Position numbers and translations under genes: made by a program. A stretch of DNA of 64,000 bases. Origin: Escherichia coli (GTDB taxonomy: Bacteria > Pseudomonadota > Gammaproteobacteria > Enterobacterales > Enterobacteriaceae). Position 1 is the stretch's first letter. Every line of letters begins with the position of its first letter. The stretch is from NCBI RefSeq assembly GCF_036507355.1, contig NZ_AP027877.1; one strand, written 5' to 3'. The notes under the pieces were generated by a model. It ran no database searches, was not told the DNA's origin, and saw only the letters and a program-made list of their open reading frames with translations. Shown here piece after piece: positions 6,339 to 16,173 of this stretch.

Positions 6339-6412
6339 GCGGGCGTAGTTCAATGGTAGAACGAGAGCTTCCCAAGCTCTATACGAGGGTTCGATTCCCT
6401 TCGCCCGCTCCA
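6339..6412 (+). tRNA. glyU: tRNA-Gly (anticodon CCC)
   Basis: 74-nt sequence GCGGGCGTAGTTCAATGGTAGAACGAGAGCTTCCCAAGCTCTATACGAGGGTTCGATTCCCTTCGCCCGCTCCA with cloverleaf and CCC anticodon. Confidence 0.97.
6390..6412 (+). repeat. attL core: 3' end of glyU (23 bp), direct repeat of 10585-10607
   Basis: TTCGATTCCCTTCGCCCGCTCCA occurs identically at 6390-6412 and 10585-10607. Confidence 0.85.
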
Positions 6413-6546
6413 TGACCTTTCTTAAAGTACTCCAACCTACTGAATCCTAAGGGATACGGCTTTAAGCCTTCCGCTAGTTTTACTCACTGTAACCAACACT
6501 GTAACTAAATTTGTTGAAATAGTGAGCAGACTTAAGATCTCAGTAC

Positions 6547-8178
6547 ATGCTCAACTCAAAAACCTATCTTTATCAGCGCAATGGCGTCTTTTATATCCGC
6601 CTCAGGATGAAGTCCACAGATCGCCTGACCGTTTCACATCCTTCCCATAGCCGTTATAAAATAGCGTCAGTATCACTACGGACTAAGGATAGACGTACAG
6701 CTATGGCTTACTCACGGCAAATCAAGGCAGCACTTAGGGCAATCCATGCAGACAGACCCAACGCCTCCTATGAGGAAATGAGGGAACACCTGAGGGACAT
6801 CGCAGAGTGGGAGTTGTCTACAGGTCGTTCAGACCTCTTCGAGCCAGATATGAGAGATCTATACCGTGACCAGTATGGGGAAGTGGGAGAGAATCTTGTC
6901 CATGCTCTGGCAAGCGAGCCACTGACTATTGACCAGCATCGCTATATTAATGAGGCTCTTAATGTACTCAAGGCCTGCATGAAGCGCATTGAAGCGGGAG
7001 ATAGCCAGCCACTTATAGATTATATAGATGGATTTGATGCTGCTGCTGGGGCTAATGGCCAAGCCTCTGCAACTCTATCTGTTAGTGCTCCCCAAAAAAC
7101 AAGCATTACTGAAGGCAAACACTGCGTAACCGTTGCTTCTCTCTTTGAGCAGTACGAGCAGGAAAACGCCCAGAACTGGAAGCCAGCAACATTACGAGAA
7201 AACAAAGCTTCTCATGCTGCGTTAATCGAAGTTTTTGATTATCTGGGCCTCAATGCTGACGCCAATGTGTTAGCTCGTGCGGATATGCTTAGGGTTCGGG
7301 ATATCCTCCAGCAATTGCCGAAGAATCGTAAGCAGCGTTTCAAAGATGTTCCGTTGGTTGACCTGCTAGGTCGTGAGGATAAAACCGATTGTCTGGATAT
7401 TGTTACCATCAATAATAAATATCTCATTAAGATGGCGGCTGTTTTCAAGTGGGCCGTGCGTAATGACCTGATTAAAAAGAATATGACAGAAGGGCTAGAG
7501 CTTAAGGTTCCCCAGCGTAAAGCCTCTGAGGCGCGTAATGCTTTCTCTACGGAGCAGGTAGGACAACTACTGGCTGCCGCCCAAGTTTACTCACAGAGAC
7601 CTTCTGGTAAGCCGTATCATTATTATGTTACCGCCTTGGCTGCTATCACTGGGGCGAGACTCAATGAAATAGCCCAACTACAGGTCAAAGACGTCAGGAC
7701 CACTGAGGCGGGAACCGTTTATATTCATATCAATGAAGACGATAGTAGTCTACCCGGTAAGAGCATCAAGAACGCTCATAGTGACCGCTGTGTGCCTCTG
7801 GTCGATGGGGCCTATGGTTTTATATTGGCTGACTTTATGAGGTTGGTTGAGACCCGTAGAGGCGCTGATGGTGATGACGCTATGGTGTTCGATGGTCTTC
7901 GCCTCATGAAGAACGGTTACGGTGAGCAGGTGAGTAAATGGTTTAATCGGACGTTGTTGCCTAAAGTCCTCGCAGACCGTAGCGGCTTAGCGTTTCACTC
8001 GTTTAGACATACAGTTGCGACCCAGTTAAAACAACATGGGGTCGAGTTGGCGTATGCACAGGCGATCATGGGGCATAGTTCAGGGTCTATTACTTACGAC
8101 CGTTATGCTAAAGAGGTTGAGGTTGATAGACTGGTCAATGTGATGGCTGATGTTTATAAGGAGGTTGTGGCCCCTTAA
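6547..8178 (+). CDS. tyrosine-type integrase (543 aa, extended N-terminal region)
   Basis: C-terminal catalytic motifs ARLNEI (Arg), HSFRHTVAT (H-x-x-R), GHSSGSITYDRYAK (Tyr); first gene after the tRNA att core. Confidence 0.85.
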   Translation: MLNSKTYLYQRNGVFYIRLRMKSTDRLTVSHPSHSRYKIASVSLRTKDRRTAMAYSRQIKAALRAIHADRPNASYEEMREHLRDIAEWELSTGRSDLFEPDMRDLYRDQYGEVGENLVHALASEPLTIDQHRYINEALNVLKACMKRIEAGDSQPLIDYIDGFDAAAGANGQASATLSVSAPQKTSITEGKHCVTVASLFEQYEQENAQNWKPATLRENKASHAALIEVFDYLGLNADANVLARADMLRVRDILQQLPKNRKQRFKDVPLVDLLGREDKTDCLDIVTINNKYLIKMAAVFKWAVRNDLIKKNMTEGLELKVPQRKASEARNAFSTEQVGQLLAAAQVYSQRPSGKPYHYYVTALAAITGARLNEIAQLQVKDVRTTEAGTVYIHINEDDSSLPGKSIKNAHSDRCVPLVDGAYGFILADFMRLVETRRGADGDDAMVFDGLRLMKNGYGEQVSKWFNRTLLPKVLADRSGLAFHSFRHTVATQLKQHGVELAYAQAIMGHSSGSITYDRYAKEVEVDRLVNVMADVYKEVVAP

Positions 8179-8179
8179 G

Positions 8180-8234
8180 GATGACCATAGGCGATGACCA
8201 TAGGCGATGACCATAGGCGATGACACTTGCTACT
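8180..8234 (+). repeat. tandem 13-bp iterons (GATGACCATAGGC x3 plus a variant GATGACACTTGCTACT)
   Basis: Three perfect head-to-tail copies starting one base after the integrase stop; the variant unit recurs at about 8391-8410. Confidence 0.8.
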
Positions 8235-8293
8235 ATTCCTATGGTCCCCTTTGTGGTCCTATGTGGTCCTGTGTGACCCTTTGTGTGGTCATG
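8235..8293 (+). repeat. cluster of TGGTCC/TGTGGTC short repeats
   Basis: ATTCCTATGGTCCCCTTTGTGGTCCTATGTGGTCCTGTGTGACCCTTTGTGTGGTCATG: about five degenerate copies of one motif. Confidence 0.7.
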
Positions 8294-8330
8294 TTTTGAC
8301 TCATAGTTTTCACTACTTGTCAAGCATATT

Positions 8331-8353
8331 TAATACGACTCACTATAGGGAGA
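8331..8353 (+). promoter_or_regulatory. bacteriophage T7 RNA polymerase promoter (exact 23-bp class III consensus)
   Basis: TAATACGACTCACTATAGGGAGA read directly, predicted +1 G at 8348; followed by a TCTCTCTCTGTCTCTCTC tract. Confidence 0.85.
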
Positions 8354-8584
8354 AGGGACACAAAAAGTTTTCTCTCTCTGTCTCTCTCTATGATGACACT
8401 TGCTACTACTTCAGGTAGCTTTAACTCTAACCGTAACTTATCGCATCCTTTCAGGGGCGGGATGACCAATTACAGACACCAAGCGTTCTACTTAAAATGA
8501 ATGCTTCCTGTGTGCTCTGGGTCAGTCGATAAGTGAATAGCCTTAGACATCATATTAATTATGGTCTCTAACCCCTACAGGGGC

Positions 8585-8729
8585 TTAACTTTAAGTATTA
8601 ACTTATAGTCTACTTAAAGACACAATTAAAGATTAACTTAAAGTATTAAATTATAGATTAATTAAAGACCAATTAAAGAGTAACTTTAAGTATTAACTTA
8701 TAGTCTACTTAAAGACACAATTAAAGATT
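8585..8729 (+). repeat. AT-rich iteron array with two ~48-bp direct repeats (TTAAAGA/TTAAAGAC units)
   Basis: AACTTTAAGTATTAACTTATAGTCTACTTAAAGACACAATTAAAGATT at about 8587-8634 and 8682-8729; preceded by CCCCTACAGGGG at about 8570. Confidence 0.8.
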
Positions 8730-8920
8730 GACTCTAAGGGAATACCTTAAGAGGTGATGATATTCATAATAATCAATCACCAAACCTATAGGTCTCCTCA
8801 AGGCATTACCCAGAAGCTAACTGTATGGCCCTGTATGGTCCTGTACGCCATTCTTTAGGATGCCATGTAGTTTCGTATGGCCTGATGCCTAGCGTGGCTC
8901 AGAGACCCTCCCAGTAGTAA

Positions 8921-8945
8921 ATCAATACGACTTACTAATAGGAGA
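8921..8945 (+). promoter_or_regulatory. degenerate T7-like promoter (putative)
   Basis: CAATACGACTTACTAATAGGAGACA: 18 of 23 positions match the T7 consensus, same orientation, about 230 bp upstream of the 9158 ORF. Confidence 0.45.
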
Positions 8946-9157
8946 CACACTCCGAACCACTCACCACGTGTCTCTCAAAGTTCCACCTCTCGCGCTTCAC
9001 CATACAGTAGCTCCGCACAGCTACGACACAATCATTCATTCAATCTCAAAGTCATTCTGTTTGCATCCTGTTGTCCTGCTGGTCTCCCTTCGCTTGGGGA
9101 CTTTGAGTGGGCCAGTAGGGGGCGGTTTAGTGTGCATATTTAAAAGGTAACCAAGCA

Positions 9158-9721
9158 ATGAACAATAAACATAAACATGCAGGTCATATTATCACTATTG
9201 AAGGCCACAGCTTTAAGTCTAATGAGTCTGGCATGTGGAATCTTACAGAAATATGGAAAATCCTCGGATTACCTAACAATAAGCTACCCTCTCAGTGGCG
9301 CGGCAAGGTAACAAAGAGGCTCACCGACATGCAAAAAATGCACGTCGAGAAGATTGGTATTGAAAGCATAACCTACGCAGACAAACAGGCTACCCTCAAG
9401 TATGCAGGATGGGTCTCTGAAGATTTCGAGGACATGGTCTATGCAGCCTTTGAGGCTATCCTTGAGATGCCTGAAGTTGCCACGGTCGTTGCTAATAAGA
9501 TGGTCGAACTTGGCTATCACGCTGAAGCTGAGCTATTGGAACGTCATAAGGACGACTATAGAGAAGCTATGCAGACCCTTAAAAAGATTGGTAAACGTGT
9601 TGACGGCAGGAAGCCTGAGCGCATCTACAAGGCCGTACTTAACGGTAATCTGACGAAATTTCAAGGGTTATCCATGATTTCTCGCAGCAGTGTCTGGTAC
9701 GCCCGAACAGTGAATCTATGA
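9158..9721 (+). CDS. hypothetical protein, possible KilA-N-like N-terminal domain
   Basis: 187-aa ORF with AAGGTAA upstream; N-terminal IITIEGHSFKSNESGMWNLTEIWKILG...AGWVSEDFEDMVYAAF is reminiscent of KilA-N/APSES-type domains (tentative, from recall). Confidence 0.5.
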   Translation: MNNKHKHAGHIITIEGHSFKSNESGMWNLTEIWKILGLPNNKLPSQWRGKVTKRLTDMQKMHVEKIGIESITYADKQATLKYAGWVSEDFEDMVYAAFEAILEMPEVATVVANKMVELGYHAEAELLERHKDDYREAMQTLKKIGKRVDGRKPERIYKAVLNGNLTKFQGLSMISRSSVWYARTVNL

Positions 9722-9844
9722 TGGCTATCGATCACGATAGATGCCAGCGATCAATTTCAGGTTACCGATCGAAACAAACGATCAGCACGATGGTTGCAAT
9801 CGGATATCATATTGACACTTGTCTGACATCCTGAAGGTATCAAT

Positions 9845-10318
9845 ATGTTTGGGCTTTTTAAGAAAAAGGCAAAAGCGGAAAGGTGTTATGATGTAACACG
9901 CATTCAATACGAGCTGGTTGTAATGTCATCTAAGCTGATAAAAAAACAGACCGATATGTTCAAAGTAATAAAAGGGGAGCGAGAGGAGGCTTTAGGAGAC
10001 CCTTTATTATCAGCAGGGTATATAACGCCATGGGTCATTGGATATTGCACTGGTCTCCTGGATGCAGTGACTCAGACGGAGGCTAACAGGATGGCATTTA
10101 CATCAGAAATGCTTGGGCTTCTTTTTGCTGCAGTTTTCGGTGATGATAAGTCTCTTGAGGCCATGGGAACTTATATAGCCTGTAACGAAGCCTCCTCACC
10201 AGACCATGGATTTCATGTTACGTATGAGCTTTATATGTCTGGTCTAGCGAAAGCGTTTAATGAGGTATGTGAGGATAAACCTGCGATAGGACTTCTGAAC
10301 TATTTAATGCAGGATTGA
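9845..10318 (+). CDS. hypothetical protein (157 aa)
   Basis: ORF with no recognisable motifs; TTGACA at about 9810 upstream; last ORF before attR. Confidence 0.45.
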   Translation: MFGLFKKKAKAERCYDVTRIQYELVVMSSKLIKKQTDMFKVIKGEREEALGDPLLSAGYITPWVIGYCTGLLDAVTQTEANRMAFTSEMLGLLFAAVFGDDKSLEAMGTYIACNEASSPDHGFHVTYELYMSGLAKAFNEVCEDKPAIGLLNYLMQD

Positions 10319-10584
10319 AAATTTCCCACAAAAATCTCAGTGCCTATCTAACAGTAATAACCCTGCAACATTCCCCCGTATACCTCCAGAAGTTATCCAG
10401 AAGCCGAAGTAGGTATCCTGTCATGTATTTGAATCATCAAAGTTGTTCGTTCTATTCCTCTTTAGGGAATATTACAGCCCTACAGCCTTGACCAGAGATC
10501 ACTTGATGTGTAACCATAACTGTAACCAAAAGGATTCATCATCCTTTAAGAAACAATTGGTTAGTGAGTGATTGTCTTCGATAC

Positions 10585-10607
10585 TTCGATTCCCTTCGCC
10601 CGCTCCA
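10585..10607 (+). repeat. attR of the 4.2-kb element (also proximal att of the next islet)
   Basis: 23-bp copy of the glyU 3' end; flanking sequence diverges from the tRNA. Confidence 0.85.
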
Positions 10608-10771: not shown

Positions 10772-11998
10772 ATGAAGCTGACTGCTCGTCAGGTTGAAAC
10801 TGCGAAACCCAAAGAGAAGCCCTACAAACTGGCCGATGGTGGTGGGCTTTACCTGCTGGTTAATCCCAACGGTAAAAGATACTGGCGTCTCAAATACCGT
10901 TCGTTAGGTAAAGAGAAGCTGCTCGCTATTGGCGTTTATCCCGATGTTTCTTTAGCTGAGGCCCGAAGTAAGCGTGAGGATGCTAAAAGAACATTAGCGG
11001 CTGGCAACGATCCCTCTCTTGAACGAAAAATTGAGAAACTTAGTCGTCAACAAGACGCTGAAAACTCGTTTGAGGCTATCACACGGGAGTGGTATCAGCG
11101 TCGCTATGACCGCTGGTCTGTCTCCTACCGCGAAGAAATGCTGAGAACCTTTGAGAAAGATGTATTTCCTTATATCGGTCACAGGCCAATCAAAGATATC
11201 AAGCCGATGGAGTTGCTTGCAGTTCTTTCAAAGATAGAAGCACGAGGGGCAACAGAGAAAGTCCGCAAGGTTCGTCAGCGTTGTGGAGAGGTCTGGAAGT
11301 ATGCCGTTGTGACTGGGAGGGCCGAGTACAATCCAGCACCTGATCTAGCCAGCGCCGTGAGTCCTCATGAGAAAGAGCACTATGCTTTTTTAACCCAGGA
11401 TGAATTGCCTGAGTTTCTTCGGACTCTGAACGCCTATGCCGGTAGTGTGCTTGTTAAGATTGCGATGCAATTGCTCATTTTAACAGGAGTAAGGCCAGGG
11501 GAGTTGAGGCAAGCGGAGTGGCAGGAGTTTGATTTTGAGAAAAAGGTTTGGAATGTACCAGCGGAACGTATGAAAATGCGCCGCCCTCATCTTGTTCCAT
11601 TATCAAGCCAGGCAATTGACCTGCTTAATCAACTTAAACCCATAACGGGAGCAGGAGCGTTATTATTCCCAGGACGTAATAATCCTAAGAAACCGATGAG
11701 CGATATGGCATTGACTGTGTTGGTCAGGCGTATCGGCTATGCCGGGCGCGTTACAGGGCATGGATTCCGCCACACGATGAGTACCATTTTGCATGAGCAG
11801 GGATTCAACTCGGCCTGGATTGAGTTACAGCTGGCTCACGTCGATAAGAACTCAATTCGTGGGACGTATAACCATGCTCAATATTTGGAAGGTCGGCGGG
11901 AGATGATGCAGTGGTATGGAGATTTCATCGGTCAAGCAGGCAAATCCGGATCATCGCTAGCTTATGCAGCTATTAGCTTGACTGCTGAATTAGAGTGA
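10772..11998 (+). CDS. P4-type tyrosine integrase
   Basis: 408-aa ORF; N-terminus MKLTARQVETAKPKEKPYKLADGGGLYLLVNPNGKRYWRLKY typical of P4-family integrases; HGFRHT and Y-containing C-terminal box; sits 165 bp after the tRNA-derived repeat. Confidence 0.9.
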   Translation: MKLTARQVETAKPKEKPYKLADGGGLYLLVNPNGKRYWRLKYRSLGKEKLLAIGVYPDVSLAEARSKREDAKRTLAAGNDPSLERKIEKLSRQQDAENSFEAITREWYQRRYDRWSVSYREEMLRTFEKDVFPYIGHRPIKDIKPMELLAVLSKIEARGATEKVRKVRQRCGEVWKYAVVTGRAEYNPAPDLASAVSPHEKEHYAFLTQDELPEFLRTLNAYAGSVLVKIAMQLLILTGVRPGELRQAEWQEFDFEKKVWNVPAERMKMRRPHLVPLSSQAIDLLNQLKPITGAGALLFPGRNNPKKPMSDMALTVLVRRIGYAGRVTGHGFRHTMSTILHEQGFNSAWIELQLAHVDKNSIRGTYNHAQYLEGRREMMQWYGDFIGQAGKSGSSLAYAAISLTAELE

Positions 11999-12008
11999 GA
12001 AGGGGCAA

Positions 12009-12056
12009 GTTGAGCCTCTTCGCTGAGAAGAGGCTCAACGTGAACCTATTTTTTTG
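12009..12056 (+). terminator. intrinsic terminator after integrase
   Basis: GTTGAGCCTCTTC-GCTG-AGAAGAGGCTCAAC hairpin followed by a T7 run. Confidence 0.7.
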
Positions 12057-12153
12057 GGAGTTAATACTTTTTGCAATTTTTTTTTTCGTGCCGTTGGATG
12101 TAAAGATCTGTGGGGGTTAGGGAAGAAAATCATGCTATGTTAGTCTTTGAGGA

Positions 12154-13131
12154 GTGAGTCAAAATGTTATAACTTTTTCAAAGAGGCGTTACATCGTGAA
12201 AGTCGTTTTTAATGTTAATGGTAAAAAAGTTCCGCTCAAATCTCTGCAATATATAAGTAAAGCAAATCAACTCGAAGTTATGCGGAATTGGTTTTTTGAG
12301 AATTTTGAAGATCCCGCGAACTCTTGCCCGTATGAATCCCGTGAAGGCGGGTATGCTTACATTTATGGGGGCCCATACGAAGCAAGTGAAGAGTTGCAAG
12401 CGATGTTTGAAGGACACGTGAAATTTGATTATATCCAAGAATTAGTCAATGAATTACAAGAACAGTGCTATGAATGGTCTGGTAATTCAAATAATATTAA
12501 TGATTGGTACGATGAAGACTTGTATGATGCTGTTACATCTTCTGAACATCCTTTTTCTAAGTTCGTTGAAAGCATTGATGGAATAAAATTGCTGTCTAAA
12601 GGCGAATTTAAAGATAAACAAAAAGATCATCTGCTTAGCATCCTATATATTAATGTCATTACAGCCCTGGAAACACTTTATGTTGAGTTATTTATTAACT
12701 CTATAGATAAAAACGACTCATATCTTGCTGACTTTATAGAAAAAGGTAAGACGGAATTTAAGGTAAATAAAGGAATATTGGCTTTGCCATTCAAAGGAGA
12801 AACTATTGAAAACATGAGGGCGCAATTAATTAAGGTAATTAAAGAGCATTTGATTAGTGCAAGTTGGCATAGTACAAACAAAGTTGTAGGACGTTATAAA
12901 GCTACATTTGATATAAAAGTACATAAAGAGTGGCCAATAGATGTGATCGAAATAGCAACTCAAAAGCGTAATCATTTAGTCCATCGTGGCGGGAAAGATA
13001 AAGAAGGTAATTCGGTAGTGATTACTGAACAGGATTTAGAAATGTTGCTGGATCACGCACAATCTCTTGGAGAAAAATTGTTTGATAGCCTTGAGGTGGC
13101 ATTACAGAAAAAAGATGAGAATGAATTTTGA
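12154..13131 (+). CDS. hypothetical protein with C-terminal HEPN-like R-x4-H motif (putative abortive-infection protein)
   Basis: 325-aa ORF; C-terminal KRNHLVHRGG fits the HEPN R-x(4-6)-H signature; AT-rich gene inside an integrase islet. Confidence 0.5.
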   Translation: MSQNVITFSKRRYIVKVVFNVNGKKVPLKSLQYISKANQLEVMRNWFFENFEDPANSCPYESREGGYAYIYGGPYEASEELQAMFEGHVKFDYIQELVNELQEQCYEWSGNSNNINDWYDEDLYDAVTSSEHPFSKFVESIDGIKLLSKGEFKDKQKDHLLSILYINVITALETLYVELFINSIDKNDSYLADFIEKGKTEFKVNKGILALPFKGETIENMRAQLIKVIKEHLISASWHSTNKVVGRYKATFDIKVHKEWPIDVIEIATQKRNHLVHRGGKDKEGNSVVITEQDLEMLLDHAQSLGEKLFDSLEVALQKKDENEF

Positions 13132-13182
13132 GTCTCGGGGTAGGTTGATAGTGCTACCGATAACGAGCAAGCAAATGATACT

Positions 13183-13202
13183 CGGCAGGCAGTGCCTGCC
13201 GG
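13183..13202. terminator. bidirectional hairpin between convergent genes
   Basis: CCGGCAGGCA-G-TGCCTGCCGG perfect inverted repeat between the 13131 and 13207 stop codons. Confidence 0.55.
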
Positions 13203-13206
13203 AGGA

Positions 13207-14910
13207 TTACTTTTTACTTCCAAATTGAATGCCGAGAAGTTTATTCTCTGCTTTATCGCCACGTAGAGTAAGAACAATTTTTGATTTCAGTTCTAACATT
13301 TCGATTTCAGATAAAGTTGTTTCCATAGCATTAAAGTTTTCAGTGTTTAAAGATGCTATATATTGCTTTCCGCTTCGTTTTAATGACTGATTGACAAATG
13401 AGAACCATCTTGCGCGAACACCTGGATCTATATCAGCAAAAAGACGGTTATCATGCCATAGCATATCCATGGCATGGTTTTCACCACATGTAAATACTAA
13501 CCAGTCAAAGCATAATATCCTAGCATCATTGATCCCATCCGAATCATCACCCTCGATTTGGATGCTTAGATCATAACGAATTTTGTTGTCACCAGTATTA
13601 ACATCCAAAACTATTCCTGCTGGTACCCTTGGGTACATTATTTCTGCGAGCTCAGCAAAAATTTTATCGTATTCTGAAAGAGGATTTGTAGAAGCATAGT
13701 TTACCGCTAATCTGTCTTGTTCAACTTTTCGTTCTCTTAGATTTTGAGCTTTCTGTTGAAGGTTAATAGAAAAATTTAAATAATCATGTAACCTTTCTTT
13801 TTCTTCTTTAAATTCAGCTAGTTGTCTAGCTATGACTGCGTATTCATCAAATGCTTTCTTGCCTTGCAGGGATTCCAAATATGAATCACGTAATGCTGAA
13901 ATATCCTTAATGTCAATTTTAAGAGATTCAATTTCTAACAAAAGTTTTACTTTATCATTTTCAAGTCTTTTCTTTCTGTTAAAAGATAATGATTTGTGAA
14001 AATTTTCAACTGACTCAAAATGGGCCAATGTTTCTGGCTTGAAAATCTCTTGTAAGCCATTGTACAGTTCAAGAAGCTCTTCTCTTGAAATGTCAGGGTG
14101 TTCTAATAAAGTTTTTTCTATATTATTTACTTTAAATTCAGCTATATTTTTGTTTTTTTCAACTTCTCGTAATTTTATAGTTAAACTGTTTGTTTCATTC
14201 TCAATAGCTCTGTATTGCTCGTGAACTTGAAATGCATTCAGTTCATCCTGCAGTCTTGGGATCTCTCTTTCTAGCCACTCATAGCGTACTTTAGGTTGAG
14301 AGCCTGCTCTAAACATGTCTTTTAGAATATCATCGTCTTGCCAATTTTTTAGCGATTGACTTACTTTATCCAGCTCTTGCTTATTATTTCTTTTAGATAA
14401 TATTAAATTATGATCTATACCGAGAAGAAATGCGGTACGAAGCAATGCTTCAAAGTCTTGCTCCTTTTTTGTCCTAGTTGGACTGATGCAGTCATCTCTG
14501 GTATATCGCGAAAAACGCTTAAATAAAGATCTGAATGATAAATACGGAATGTTATTCTCAAGATTAAATATTCCTATTTTATCTAATAAATCTTTAAATG
14601 CTTTTAAAGATATTGTTTTGTCATTTAATAATAATTTTTTTCCATTGCCCGTTCTAGATATTAAGTACTCAACTCCATTATGAGAAAAAAGTAAAGAGAA
14701 CCACCAATCTGGAACTGCTGAAGTTAATTTTTTATCAGCATTAGCTCCTAAACAATGTTGAATGAGACCGAGAATAAGTGTCTTACCGACTCCGTTACTA
14801 CTGCCTTCTTTTTCTTTAGAGCTATCACCAATGATCAACGTTAGTCCTGTATCATTGAAATGCACTGGATGAAAAGTTGGCTGATCGCAAGTTAAGCGAA
14901 TTAACTTCAT
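13207..14910 (-). CDS. SMC/ABC-type P-loop ATPase with long coiled-coil region (putative anti-phage ATPase)
   Basis: 567-aa ORF; Walker A GSSNGVGKT near the N-terminus; long K/E-rich heptad-like middle; start codon abuts the stop of the upstream 101-aa gene. Confidence 0.65.
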   Translation of the reverse strand: MKLIRLTCDQPTFHPVHFNDTGLTLIIGDSSKEKEGSSNGVGKTLILGLIQHCLGANADKKLTSAVPDWWFSLLFSHNGVEYLISRTGNGKKLLLNDKTISLKAFKDLLDKIGIFNLENNIPYLSFRSLFKRFSRYTRDDCISPTRTKKEQDFEALLRTAFLLGIDHNLILSKRNNKQELDKVSQSLKNWQDDDILKDMFRAGSQPKVRYEWLEREIPRLQDELNAFQVHEQYRAIENETNSLTIKLREVEKNKNIAEFKVNNIEKTLLEHPDISREELLELYNGLQEIFKPETLAHFESVENFHKSLSFNRKKRLENDKVKLLLEIESLKIDIKDISALRDSYLESLQGKKAFDEYAVIARQLAEFKEEKERLHDYLNFSINLQQKAQNLRERKVEQDRLAVNYASTNPLSEYDKIFAELAEIMYPRVPAGIVLDVNTGDNKIRYDLSIQIEGDDSDGINDARILCFDWLVFTCGENHAMDMLWHDNRLFADIDPGVRARWFSFVNQSLKRSGKQYIASLNTENFNAMETTLSEIEMLELKSKIVLTLRGDKAENKLLGIQFGSKK

Positions 14911-15216
14911 TTAACTTTCCTTATTTTTTAATTTGTCATAATTGCAACAGATTGGCATTATTCTGTTTTCATTATCTAGCGTTATTTGTTTGATGCAAAA
15001 AAGAATGTCTACGGCAAGTATAAATTGTGTAAAAGAGGGCGTGATTATCGTTGATTTATTTTTCCGCTCTATTTTTGTCCATAGTTCTTCTATGGATACC
15101 GGTCCATCAATTAACGAACGGATGTATCCTGCAATCGCAATTAGGGAGTTACTAAACCTAACATGCTTATGTGGCAGAAGCATTGCTTGGATGTTCATAA
15201 GCATCACATGTCTCAA
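14911..15216 (-). CDS. small hypothetical protein coupled to the ATPase
   Basis: 101-aa ORF whose stop (14911-14913) is immediately followed by the ATPase ATG (14908-14910), suggesting translational coupling. Confidence 0.5.
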   Translation of the reverse strand: MRHVMLMNIQAMLLPHKHVRFSNSLIAIAGYIRSLIDGPVSIEELWTKIERKNKSTIITPSFTQFILAVDILFCIKQITLDNENRIMPICCNYDKLKNKES

Positions 15217-15390
15217 AATATTTAGCTAAAATTAACTCTGCAGCAAATCGATAACTCGCGACCGCACTTGTGGGAACTTGCGGGGGAAGGAGTTTATCTA
15301 TCATCCAAGTATATCTTAAATCTGCATAATTGTGGTTATCTTCAGTTATCGCCAATTTACTTTTTGCATAAGTATCTCTAACTTCTTGAG

Positions 15391-16173
15391 CTATAGTTTG
15401 TTCAAGACCACAAGACCATTATCAACAGAATCTAAAAATTCATTTATCAAATATAGTTGATAGCTAAAAGATTCCAGCCTGCTTTTTATTGGTTTTGTAA
15501 TACCATTTATTTTTATTTTATCTTCGAAGTCCGGGGCTGTTTCACTTAAAAAATTCATGGGTGAAGAAGATTTTTGTGCTAAAAAAGTCAATACTTCACC
15601 AACAGCTCGAGTATCTGTAAAGTCTAAATTAACCTCAGGAATGAAACCTACAATATCTTGCTTTTCACCCTCGGATAATGACATAAACTTTTGAAGGAGC
15701 TCCATCCCACCCATTGCACCTGCGTGATTAAGACTTTTACTGATTGCAAGTGTATTTAATGAAAGTCCAACAGGTGCTGGAATACCCTTGAAATAATCAT
15801 TCATTACAAAAGTATATTTTGATACTTTCCCCCATTTGGCGACTAATTTATCAAAGTCGCCAATCGATTTATTAACAGCTTCTAGCTCTTTGGTTTGATT
15901 TGAAGGTTTAGGTCCATAAACTTGGAAGTAATGAGCCTCATGAGCAATCCACCCATCATTCCCGCCATCTCCCCAGTTTCCCCAAGGGGAAACAGCTTGA
16001 AAGCCAGGAGTCGCGTATTGCATAACCTTCGAAAAAAGCGCCTGAAAACTGTCTCCCATACATTCATGTACTTTTAACCGAAAGAACTGTCTGTAGAGGT
16101 AATCTTGCTGTGTCGAACTCATTTTCCTCTCATCCATGATGAACACTTTTGATGATAATATCCTCTCATTCAT
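15391..16173 (-). CDS. hypothetical protein (260 aa), first gene of the ATPase operon, candidate effector
   Basis: ORF with WGNWGDGGNDGWIAHEAHYF segment; no confident family assignment. Confidence 0.5.
   Translation of the reverse strand: MNERILSSKVFIMDERKMSSTQQDYLYRQFFRLKVHECMGDSFQALFSKVMQYATPGFQAVSPWGNWGDGGNDGWIAHEAHYFQVYGPKPSNQTKELEAVNKSIGDFDKLVAKWGKVSKYTFVMNDYFKGIPAPVGLSLNTLAISKSLNHAGAMGGMELLQKFMSLSEGEKQDIVGFIPEVNLDFTDTRAVGEVLTFLAQKSSSPMNFLSETAPDFEDKIKINGITKPIKSRLESFSYQLYLINEFLDSVDNGLVVLNKL

What the first reader, a model, noticed from the sequence alone, without database searches (positions are those of the whole stretch)
12154..13131. Stand-alone HEPN-like protein (R-x4-H motif) as candidate abortive-infection RNase
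The C-terminal KRNHLVHRGG fits the HEPN catalytic signature found in Abi-type and toxin RNases; the gene is convergent with the ATPase operon and separated from it by a perfect 10-bp hairpin.
Basis: inference. Interest (0 to 1): 0.45.

Follow-up and report, generated by a model that had tools for sequence, protein, structure and literature searches.

The report
Stand-alone HEPN anti-phage defence gene

Summary
The ORF is real. Its true start is most likely GTG 12196 (311 aa), not 12154. The hairpin has 9-nt arms, not 10.

Relatives sit alone in cargo spots of mobile elements, with no conserved partner. These spots include the P2 gpA-portal hotspot, integrase-adjacent sites and prophage edges.

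The family is already validated. The window protein is 72% identical, without gaps, to WP_014639476.1 of system DS-33 (DefensePredictor, Science 2026). In DS-33, deleting the second gene kept defence. Deleting the HEPN gene or mutating R258A abolished it.

The RNA target and the trigger are unknown.

One new observation came out of the work. Proteins with PF18870 usually end in an acidic stretch plus a terminal Phe, whatever their effector: 71% of the HEPN class, 45% of aRES-type, 47% of the others. The tail resembles SSB C-terminal tails and may be part of the sensor.

The parts
12196..13131 (+). Coding sequence of the defence protein (311 aa plus stop). It starts at GTG 12196. The stretch 12154-12195 of the listed ORF is probably 5' leader.
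   Evidence: RefSeq start in the 99.8%-identical locus L001. Homologue lengths and N-termini agree. dN/dS is 0.06-0.15 against six homologues. It is 72% identical to the DS-33 protein WP_014639476.1.
12181..12186 (+). Shine-Dalgarno-like AAGAGG, 9 nt before GTG 12196.
   Evidence: Read directly from the sequence.
12196..12549 (+). N-terminal domain (aa 1-118), Pfam PF18870 HEPN/RES N-terminal domain 1. Invariant residues are W32, F33, P40, G58, G59, P60, F71 and W94. It is the presumed sensor or regulatory module.
12550..13113 (+). [quoted passage not shown]
12670..12672 (+). Codon of invariant E159 in the long helix 140-170. This is the conserved acidic residue of HEPN helix 2.
   Evidence: Alignment A2, the model's secondary structure, and the HEPN definition in PMC3710099.
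12967..12984 (+). Catalytic motif R258-N-H-L-V-H263 (Rx4H), followed by R264-G-G.
   Evidence: It is the only Rx4-6H in the protein. H263 is invariant and R258 and R264 are at least 90% conserved. The motif lies at the C-terminal end of helix 248-263, just before the last helix. R258A abolishes defence in DS-33.
13114..13128 (+). C-terminal tail D-E-N-E-F-COOH: an acidic stretch ending in the terminal Phe.
   Evidence: 112 of 157 HEPN-class relatives end in Phe. Position -1 is E or D in 79 of those and P in 15. The background is 9 of 158 long ORFs.
12001..12047 (+). Terminator-like hairpin plus T-run after the integrase gene. It separates the integrase from the HEPN transcription unit.
13183..13201 (.). 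G+C-rich hairpin (9-nt arms) between the convergent HEPN and ATPase genes. It is probably a shared terminator.

Best explanation
The gene encodes a self-contained anti-phage defence protein of the family validated as the HEPN component of DS-33.

Shown here: the protein has an N-terminal PF18870 domain and a C-terminal HEPN domain with an intact Rx4H site. It is under strong purifying selection. It travels alone as cargo of integrative elements and prophages.

Shown in a 72%-identical homologue (published): the protein alone protects E. coli against T7, T3, Bas67 and Bas26 and needs R258.

Inferred: the protein is kept inactive in uninfected cells, with no antitoxin involved. The N-terminal domain, possibly together with the acidic Phe-terminated tail, detects an infection cue. 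Two HEPN domains then form the composite Rx4H site and cleave RNA without a metal cofactor. tRNA anticodon loops or mRNA are the likely targets, by analogy with HepS, DARNA, ApeA and PrrC. Translation stops and the infection aborts.

For: Motif. R258-x4-H263 lies at the end of the penultimate core helix, N follows R, and E159 is invariant in helix 2. This is as HEPN is defined in PMC3710099.

Profiles. PF18735 and PF18870 match the query weakly and its relatives widely.

Selection. dN/dS is 0.06-0.15.

Context. Relatives lie in the P2/186 gpA-portal hotspot in Yersinia (hotspot defined in PMC9122126). Others lie next to prophage or island integrases or at prophage ends. The family is PHROG 17908. 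The block is AT-rich foreign DNA next to an ABC-3C system.

Experiment in a homologue. DS-33 Table S7 gives log10 defence of: wild type 3.8 (T7), 3.3 (T3), 4 (Bas67), 5 (Bas26); second gene deleted 4.8, 3.3, 4, 5; HEPN gene deleted about 0; R258A 0.8 on T7. The window protein is 72% identical over 305 aa without gaps, and R258 aligns with R258.

No partner. The DS-33 second gene has no homologue in the window or in 21 loci. There is no tandem-repeat RNA and no Rfam hit.
Against: The window allele itself is untested and is only 72% identical to the tested protein.

The query's own Pfam scores are below the gathering thresholds (24.2 against 27.4; 22.5 against 28.4). Foldseek against the PDB gave nothing significant. 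PADLOC v2 has no model that matches it.

RNase activity, the RNA target, dimerisation, the trigger and abortive behaviour have not been shown for any member of this family. The DefensePredictor main text does not discuss DS-33 individually.

The neighbouring ABC-3C effector gene is frameshifted in this strain, so part of this island is decaying.
Confidence: 0.8

Rival explanations
1. It is an additional effector or accessory subunit of the adjacent ABC-3C system (DUF2326 ATPase, MC6, effector). In that case the ATPase complex would switch it on.
For: The gene is adjacent to the same ABC-3C set in the window and in six E. coli genomes. This includes one inserted at a different tRNA with a different integrase. 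Both genes lie in the same AT-rich block.
Against: The gene is on the opposite strand and separated by a terminator-like hairpin. None of the more distant relatives examined has a DUF2326 or MC neighbour. The homologue in DS-33 works without any ABC-3C genes. The ABC-3C effector is broken here while the HEPN gene is intact.
Confidence: 0.04
2. It is the toxin of a toxin-antitoxin or addiction module that stabilises the island. An unrecognised protein or RNA antitoxin would sit nearby, as in HEPN-MNT or AbiF-type systems.
For: Many HEPN proteins are toxins of such modules (PMC3710099; list). In Dickeya the gene follows a ParE/HTH pair.
Against: No MNT or other conserved small neighbour appears in any context. 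There is no tandem-repeat RNA and no Rfam match beside the gene. DS-33 lacking its second gene is viable and still defends. The Dickeya ParE/HTH pair is a complete module of its own.
Confidence: 0.05
3. It is a non-defensive HEPN protein, for example an RNA-processing or nucleotide-binding factor of the mobile element. Its role in DS-33 would then not carry over to this allele.
For: Only 72% identity to the tested protein. Profile scores are below threshold.
Against: The catalytic motif and all family-invariant residues are kept. Purifying selection is strong. Its locations are classic anti-phage cargo sites.
Confidence: 0.06

Closest known systems
DS-33 HEPN protein WP_014639476.1 (DefensePredictor, DeWeirdt et al., Science 2026, PMC13092281)
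   Same: It is 72% identical over 305 aa without gaps. It has the same two-domain architecture, the same R258-x4-H263-R-G-G motif and the same acidic tail ending in Phe. In DS-33 this protein alone defends and needs R258.
   Different: DS-33 was cloned with a downstream 333-aa GNAT-like gene. That gene is absent here and in all loci examined, and it was dispensable in the published test. The DS-33 protein has a tail 9 aa longer. The window allele is untested.
aRES (Osterman et al., bioRxiv 10.64898/2026.01.28.702374)
   Same: It is a stand-alone defence protein with a PF18870 N-terminal domain followed by an effector domain. The E. coli UC5 aRES also ends in an acidic Phe tail..FDDLMDF. 50 of 110 of its homologues end in Phe.
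   Different: Its effector is a RES NADase, not HEPN. It has an extra N-terminal zinc ribbon. Direct profile-to-sequence comparison of the two N-terminal domains gave no signal, so the link rests on the shared Pfam model only.
HepS (Gifsy-1 prophage, PMC13043305)
   Same: It is a single HEPN protein with no partner, carried by a prophage. It is inactive by default and works as an Rx4-6H-dependent abortive tRNase.
DARNA / PD-T7-3 (bioRxiv 10.64898/2026.02.22.705581)
   Same: It is a single-protein HEPN defence against T7 and T3, and an anticodon nuclease.
   Different: The domain order is reversed: N-terminal HEPN and C-terminal ssDNA-binding domain. PADLOC's PD-T7-3 model does not match the window protein or its relatives.
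RiboL-PSP-HEPN family (PF18735; Anantharaman et al. 2013, PMC3710099), distantly related to AbiD/AbiF
   Same: The HEPN domain aligns over the whole profile. The Rx4-6H motif is conserved as in this 'active' family.
   Different: The founding members are fused to endoRNase L-PSP or sit in ParB operons. The query scores below the curated threshold.

Membership tests
HEPN superfamily | [quoted passage not shown] | tested here: met
HEPN superfamily | [quoted passage not shown] | tested here: met
   R258-N-H-L-V-H263 ends helix 248-263 and the last helix is 278-309. H263 is invariant and R258 at least 90% conserved. The residue after R is N or H. Definition from PMC3710099.
HEPN superfamily | Conserved acidic residue in helix 2 | tested here: met
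   E159 is invariant in helix 140-170.
HEPN superfamily | Metal-independent RNase activity | not testable with these tools
   No biochemical data exist for this family. Only the R258A loss of defence is known.
Pfam PF18735 HEPN_RiboL-PSP | Score at or above the gathering threshold (28.4 bits) | tested here: inconclusive
   The query's C-terminal half scores 22.5 bits, E=1.2e-4, over profile positions 14-190 of 191. Relatives P0106 (38.5 bits) and P0096 (37.9 bits) pass. 24 of 46 match at E<0.01.
Pfam PF18870 HEPN_RES_NTD1 | Score at or above the gathering threshold (27.4 bits) | tested here: inconclusive
   The query scores 24.2 bits, E=4.5e-5. 44 of 46 relatives match. P0111 (29.0), P0114 (29.5) and P0121 (40.2) pass.
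DS-33 (DefensePredictor) | Full-length homology to WP_014639476.1 with the catalytic R258 conserved | tested here: met
   72% identity over 305 aa, no gaps, E=3e-159, R258 aligned.
DS-33 (DefensePredictor) | Downstream GNAT-like second gene (WP_000354965.1) | tested here: not met
   tblastn finds no homologue in the window or in 21 loci. The gene was dispensable for defence in the published test, so it is not essential to the system.
DS-33 (DefensePredictor) | Anti-phage activity of this allele | not testable with these tools
   This needs plaque assays.
aRES | PF18870 N-terminal domain plus a RES NADase domain | tested here: not met
   No RES domain in the query. aRES proteins have RES at about aa 190-360.
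HEPN-MNT or type III (AbiF-like) toxin-antitoxin | Adjacent MNT nucleotidyltransferase gene or tandem-repeat RNA antitoxin | tested here: not met
   No such neighbour in 10 contexts. No tandem repeats and no Rfam hit.
ABC-3C system component | Conserved, co-directional linkage to a DUF2326 ATPase and a middle component | tested here: not met
   The genes are convergent. They are linked only in close E. coli relatives and not in other contexts.

The most novel reading that the evidence does not exclude
The PF18870 N-terminal domain and the Phe-terminated tail (acidic in the HEPN and RES classes, Pro-Phe in the others) may together form one portable infection sensor. Bacteria would have bolted it onto interchangeable killers: HEPN RNase here and in DS-33, RES NADase in aRES, and also PIN, GmrSD/ParB-like, KAP NTPase and hydrophobic-helix effectors.

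The tail looks like the C-terminal tips of single-stranded-DNA-binding proteins. From established knowledge, E. coli SSB ends ..DDDIPF. T7 gp2.5 has an acidic tail whose terminal Phe is essential (cited). Examples from this work are ..DENEF..GDIPF and ..DDLMDF.

It could therefore act in one of two ways. It could be a bait for phage replication proteins that dock on SSB tails. Or it could be an internal ligand of the N-terminal domain that an incoming SSB tail displaces.

Neither the DS-33 paper nor the aRES paper mentions the tail or the trigger.
Probability: 0.15. Interest if true: 0.75.

Novelty: new member of a known kind. Interest (0 to 1): 0.35.

Why it matters
It gives a function to a gene that RefSeq calls "hypothetical protein". 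It also shows that this E. coli island carries two independent defence cassettes next to its integrase.

More broadly, the same N-terminal domain and the same Phe-terminated tail occur on a validated RNase defence (DS-33) and a validated NADase defence (aRES). One sensing principle may therefore serve several effectors. That would make the unknown trigger of both systems testable with a few tail and N-terminal-domain mutants.

Tried and rejected
These searches and leads gave nothing.
- Sequence search of the PDB with the family profile: nothing, best E 0.03 to a ribosomal protein.
- Foldseek of the full model against the PDB: nothing significant, with HEPN toxins only at E about 1.
- PADLOC: no model for the query. 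Relatives gave only weak RTasHEPN, PD-T4-2_B and ApeA hits. It is therefore not PD-T4-2, PD-T4-5, PD-T7-3 or ApeA.
- NCBIfam: nothing.
- Cultured-phage records: only 3 weak hits at 28-30% identity.
- hhalign of the N-terminal-domain profile against a single aRES sequence: no signal.
- Tandem repeats and Rfam near the gene: none, so there is no type III RNA antitoxin.
- Sigma-70 promoter scan upstream on the + strand: no site at the tool's thresholds.
- Rousset 2022 "putative HEPN" pFR103 from the P2 hotspot is an unrelated protein.
- WP_097419291.1, also 311 aa and 936 nt in the DefensePredictor tables, is an unrelated membrane protein; the matching length is a coincidence.
- A third copy of the tRNA-Gly 3' repeat that would close the island was not found in the window.

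Full report
**1. The observation**

An ORF runs from GTG 12154 to the stop at 13131 on the + strand and contains KRNHLVHRGG. The real start is almost certainly GTG 12196, giving 311 aa. Three lines support this.
- RefSeq uses this start in an E. coli chromosome that is 99.8% identical here (NZ_OZ197100, WP_058687311.1, "hypothetical protein").
- Nearly all homologues are 310-320 aa and begin MK[VI]VF.
- AAGAGG lies 9 nt upstream of 12196, whereas the 12154 GTG has GAGGA abutting it with no spacer.

The intergenic hairpin is real but has 9-nt arms (13183-13191 and 13193-13201, 1 nt between), not 10 bp.

R-x4-H occurs once in the protein. About 0.17 such matches (0.5 for Rx4-6H) are expected by chance, so the motif alone proves little. 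All residue numbers below use the 311-aa form.

**2. What the protein is**

A search of 5.8 billion proteins found 128 relatives in Enterobacterales, Aeromonas, Halomonas, Pseudoalteromonas, Pseudomonas and others. Most have no name, but some carry precomputed Pfam hits PF18870 and PF18735.

In an alignment of 46 members down to 28% identity, the invariant residues are M29, W32, F33, P40, P45, G58, G59, P60, F71, W94, E159, H225, H263 and G266. R258 and R264 are at least 90% conserved.

Pfam results:
- 44 of 46 members match PF18870 (HEPN/RES N-terminal domain 1) and 24 of 46 match PF18735 (RiboL-PSP-HEPN).
- The query itself is below both curated thresholds: PF18870 scores 24.2 bits against 27.4.
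- The query's C-terminal half alone scores 22.5 bits against 28.4 on PF18735, but spans profile positions 14-190 of 191.

The motif sits where the HEPN definition puts it (PMC3710099):
- It lies at the C-terminal end of the penultimate core helix (248-263), before the last helix (278-309).
- A polar residue (N; H in distant relatives) follows R.
- An invariant acidic residue (E159) lies in the long helix 140-170.
- A helical insert (174-238) lies between them.

Anantharaman et al. list the RiboL-PSP-HEPN family as catalytically active and distantly related to AbiD/AbiF.

The gene is under strong purifying selection. dN/dS is 0.084 against a 91%-identical E. coli allele and 0.06-0.15 against five more distant homologues; a seventh comparison was saturated at synonymous sites.

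**3. Surroundings and relatives' contexts**

The window is E. coli: the left flank is 98.8% identical to E. coli chromosomes. Two integrative elements sit in tandem at tRNA-Gly(CCC). The 23-nt 3' end of the tRNA (6390-6412) is repeated at 10585-10607.

The second element starts with a P4-type integrase (10772-11998), followed by a terminator hairpin (12001-12047). Then come the HEPN gene and a convergent ABC-3C system:
- DUF2326 ATPase at 13207-14910, matching PADLOC PDC-M68B at E=8e-73.
- MC6 at 14911-15183.
- An effector gene at 15167-16122.

An ars operon follows. The 12-16 kb block is 33-37% G+C against about 50% around it.

The HEPN-plus-ABC-3C pairing recurs in six E. coli genomes, once at a tRNA-Thr with another integrase. 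It is not conserved further out:
- Dickeya: the gene follows a ParE/HTH pair beside an integrase.
- Aeromonas veronii: it lies at a prophage edge.
- Serratia: it lies directly after a prophage integrase.
- Yersinia enterocolitica: it lies between gpA and ogr/portal of P2/186-like prophages. This is the anti-phage hotspot defined by Rousset et al. (PMC9122126).
- E. coli: it lies on a satellite-like element (P4-type integrase, AlpA, Rep) and in a P22-like phage.
- Citrobacter: it lies beside the integrase of a 186-like prophage.
- Another genome: it lies beside an integrase.
- Pseudoalteromonas: a second, shorter RiboL-PSP-HEPN gene follows it.

It belongs to PHROG 17908, "unknown function" (E=3e-153). 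No tandem-repeat RNA or Rfam family lies beside it. The gene is therefore a stand-alone cargo gene of mobile elements.

**4. It has already been tested**

The supplementary tables of DefensePredictor (Science 2026, PMC13092281) contain WP_014639476.1. This is a 320-aa E. coli protein that is the first gene of system DS-33, lab code "GNAT". The window protein is 72% identical to it over 305 residues without a gap (E=3e-159), and R258 aligns with R258.

Table S7 gives these log10 reductions in plating:

| Construct | T7 | T3 | T5 | Bas67 | Bas26 |
|---|---|---|---|---|---|
| Wild type | 3.8 | 3.3 | 0.8 | 4 | 5 |
| Second (GNAT-like) gene deleted | 4.8 | 3.3 | 1.7 | 4 | 5 |
| HEPN gene deleted | 0.1 | -0.5 | 0.5 | 0 | 0.5 |
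| R258A | 0.8 | not seen | 0.4 | not seen | not seen |

The R258A rows for T3, Bas67 and Bas26 were not in the part of the table I read.

So the HEPN protein alone suffices and needs the Rx4H arginine. The second gene has no homologue in the window or in any of the 21 loci fetched. The paper's main text does not discuss DS-33 individually. It says only that four validated systems have HEPN domains. The RNA target, the trigger and the role of the N-terminal domain are open.

**5. Mechanism**

- Shown here: the architecture, the intact active-site residues, the selection, and the solo mobile context.
- Shown in the homologue: defence that depends on R258.
- Inferred by analogy with HepS (PMC13043305), DARNA/PD-T7-3 and general HEPN knowledge: the protein is inactive at rest, an infection cue is sensed by the non-catalytic part, two HEPN domains pair to form the active site, and RNA is cut (probably tRNA or mRNA). 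The outcome would be growth arrest.

**6. The N-terminal domain and the tail**

PF18870 is also one of the two Pfam domains used to define aRES, a stand-alone RES-domain NADase defence (bioRxiv 10.64898/2026.01.28.702374). aRES proteins match PF18870 at aa 28-148, with 41.1 bits for the Klebsiella protein. A direct profile-to-sequence comparison with the window's domain gave no signal, however.

Unexpectedly, these proteins tend to end in phenylalanine.
- HEPN class: 112 of 157 end in Phe. Position -1 is E or D in 79 and P in 15, and position -3 is E or D in 68. Examples are ..DENEF here..ESEF..GDIPF and ..EEMPF.
- Non-HEPN class: 28 of 60 end in Phe, typically W-x6-P-F.
- aRES homologues: 50 of 110 end in Phe, for example ..FDDLIDF..DDSDF and ..EIDPF.
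- The tested E. coli UC5 aRES ends ..FDDLMDF. I reconstructed this from the paper's Table S4.
- Background: 9 of 158 long ORFs in the same loci end in Phe.

The counts are not corrected for shared ancestry. Even so, the pattern spans three effector classes. The tail resembles SSB C-terminal tips. E. coli SSB ends ..DDDIPF (established knowledge). T7 gp2.5 has an acidic tail with an essential terminal Phe (as cited). That the tail is a bait or an autoinhibitory ligand is my hypothesis only. Nothing here tests it.

**7. Verdict**

The gene is a new member (72% identity) of a family already shown to be a single-protein, HEPN-dependent anti-phage defence. Interest is therefore moderate to low. What remains of interest is the unknown trigger and target, and the shared N-terminal-domain-plus-tail module.

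Noticed in passing
window 15411-15418 (- strand gene 15167-16122): The effector gene of the neighbouring ABC-3C system carries an 8-bp tandem duplication (TGGTCTTG TGGTCTTG) relative to the 99.8%-identical E. coli locus, where it is an intact 315-aa gene. The frameshift truncates it at about 243 aa and removes the C-terminal (CTD10-like) part. In another E. coli (L002) the same gene is cut by ISSen4. The ABC-3C system therefore looks inactivated in two independent ways, while the HEPN gene stays intact.
   Followed up: partly
window 6390-6412 and 10585-10607: The 23-nt 3' end of tRNA-Gly(CCC) is repeated exactly 4.2 kb downstream. This indicates two integrative elements in tandem. The first (6413-10584) carries a 543-aa integrase and a KilA-N protein. 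The second starts with the P4-type integrase. In E. coli NZ_OZ197100 only the second element is present. No third repeat closing the second element was found in the window.
   Followed up: partly
family-wide; window 13114-13128: Proteins with the PF18870 N-terminal domain usually end in a terminal Phe after acidic residues or Pro, whatever their effector domain (HEPN, RES or other). The tail resembles SSB C-terminal tips. It is not mentioned in the DS-33 or aRES papers.
   Followed up: partly
P0112-P0119, P0123, P0124, P0154 and similar: A large set of PF18870 proteins has no nuclease domain. Instead they have a GHNxPP motif, a coiled-coil region and a hydrophobic C-terminal helix ending W-x6-P-F. 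They may be membrane-acting effectors. Other fusions are to PIN_8, GmrSD_N and KAP NTPase.
   Followed up: no
L003 9007-9564 (Pseudoalteromonas distincta): A second, shorter (185 aa) RiboL-PSP-HEPN gene and a 205-aa unknown gene directly follow the family member. This may be a multi-HEPN variant of the system.
   Followed up: no
window 12000-16000: This block is 33-37% G+C against about 45-53% on both sides. It covers exactly the HEPN gene and the ABC-3C genes, which suggests they arrived together as foreign cargo distinct from the integrase and the ars operon.
   Followed up: no
window 13207-16122 versus DefensePredictor DS-30: DefensePredictor also validated an ABC-3C-type system (DS-30, code ABC3) with a DUF2326 ATPase. 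It has different small components from the MC6 variant in the window. The two were not compared in detail.
   Followed up: no
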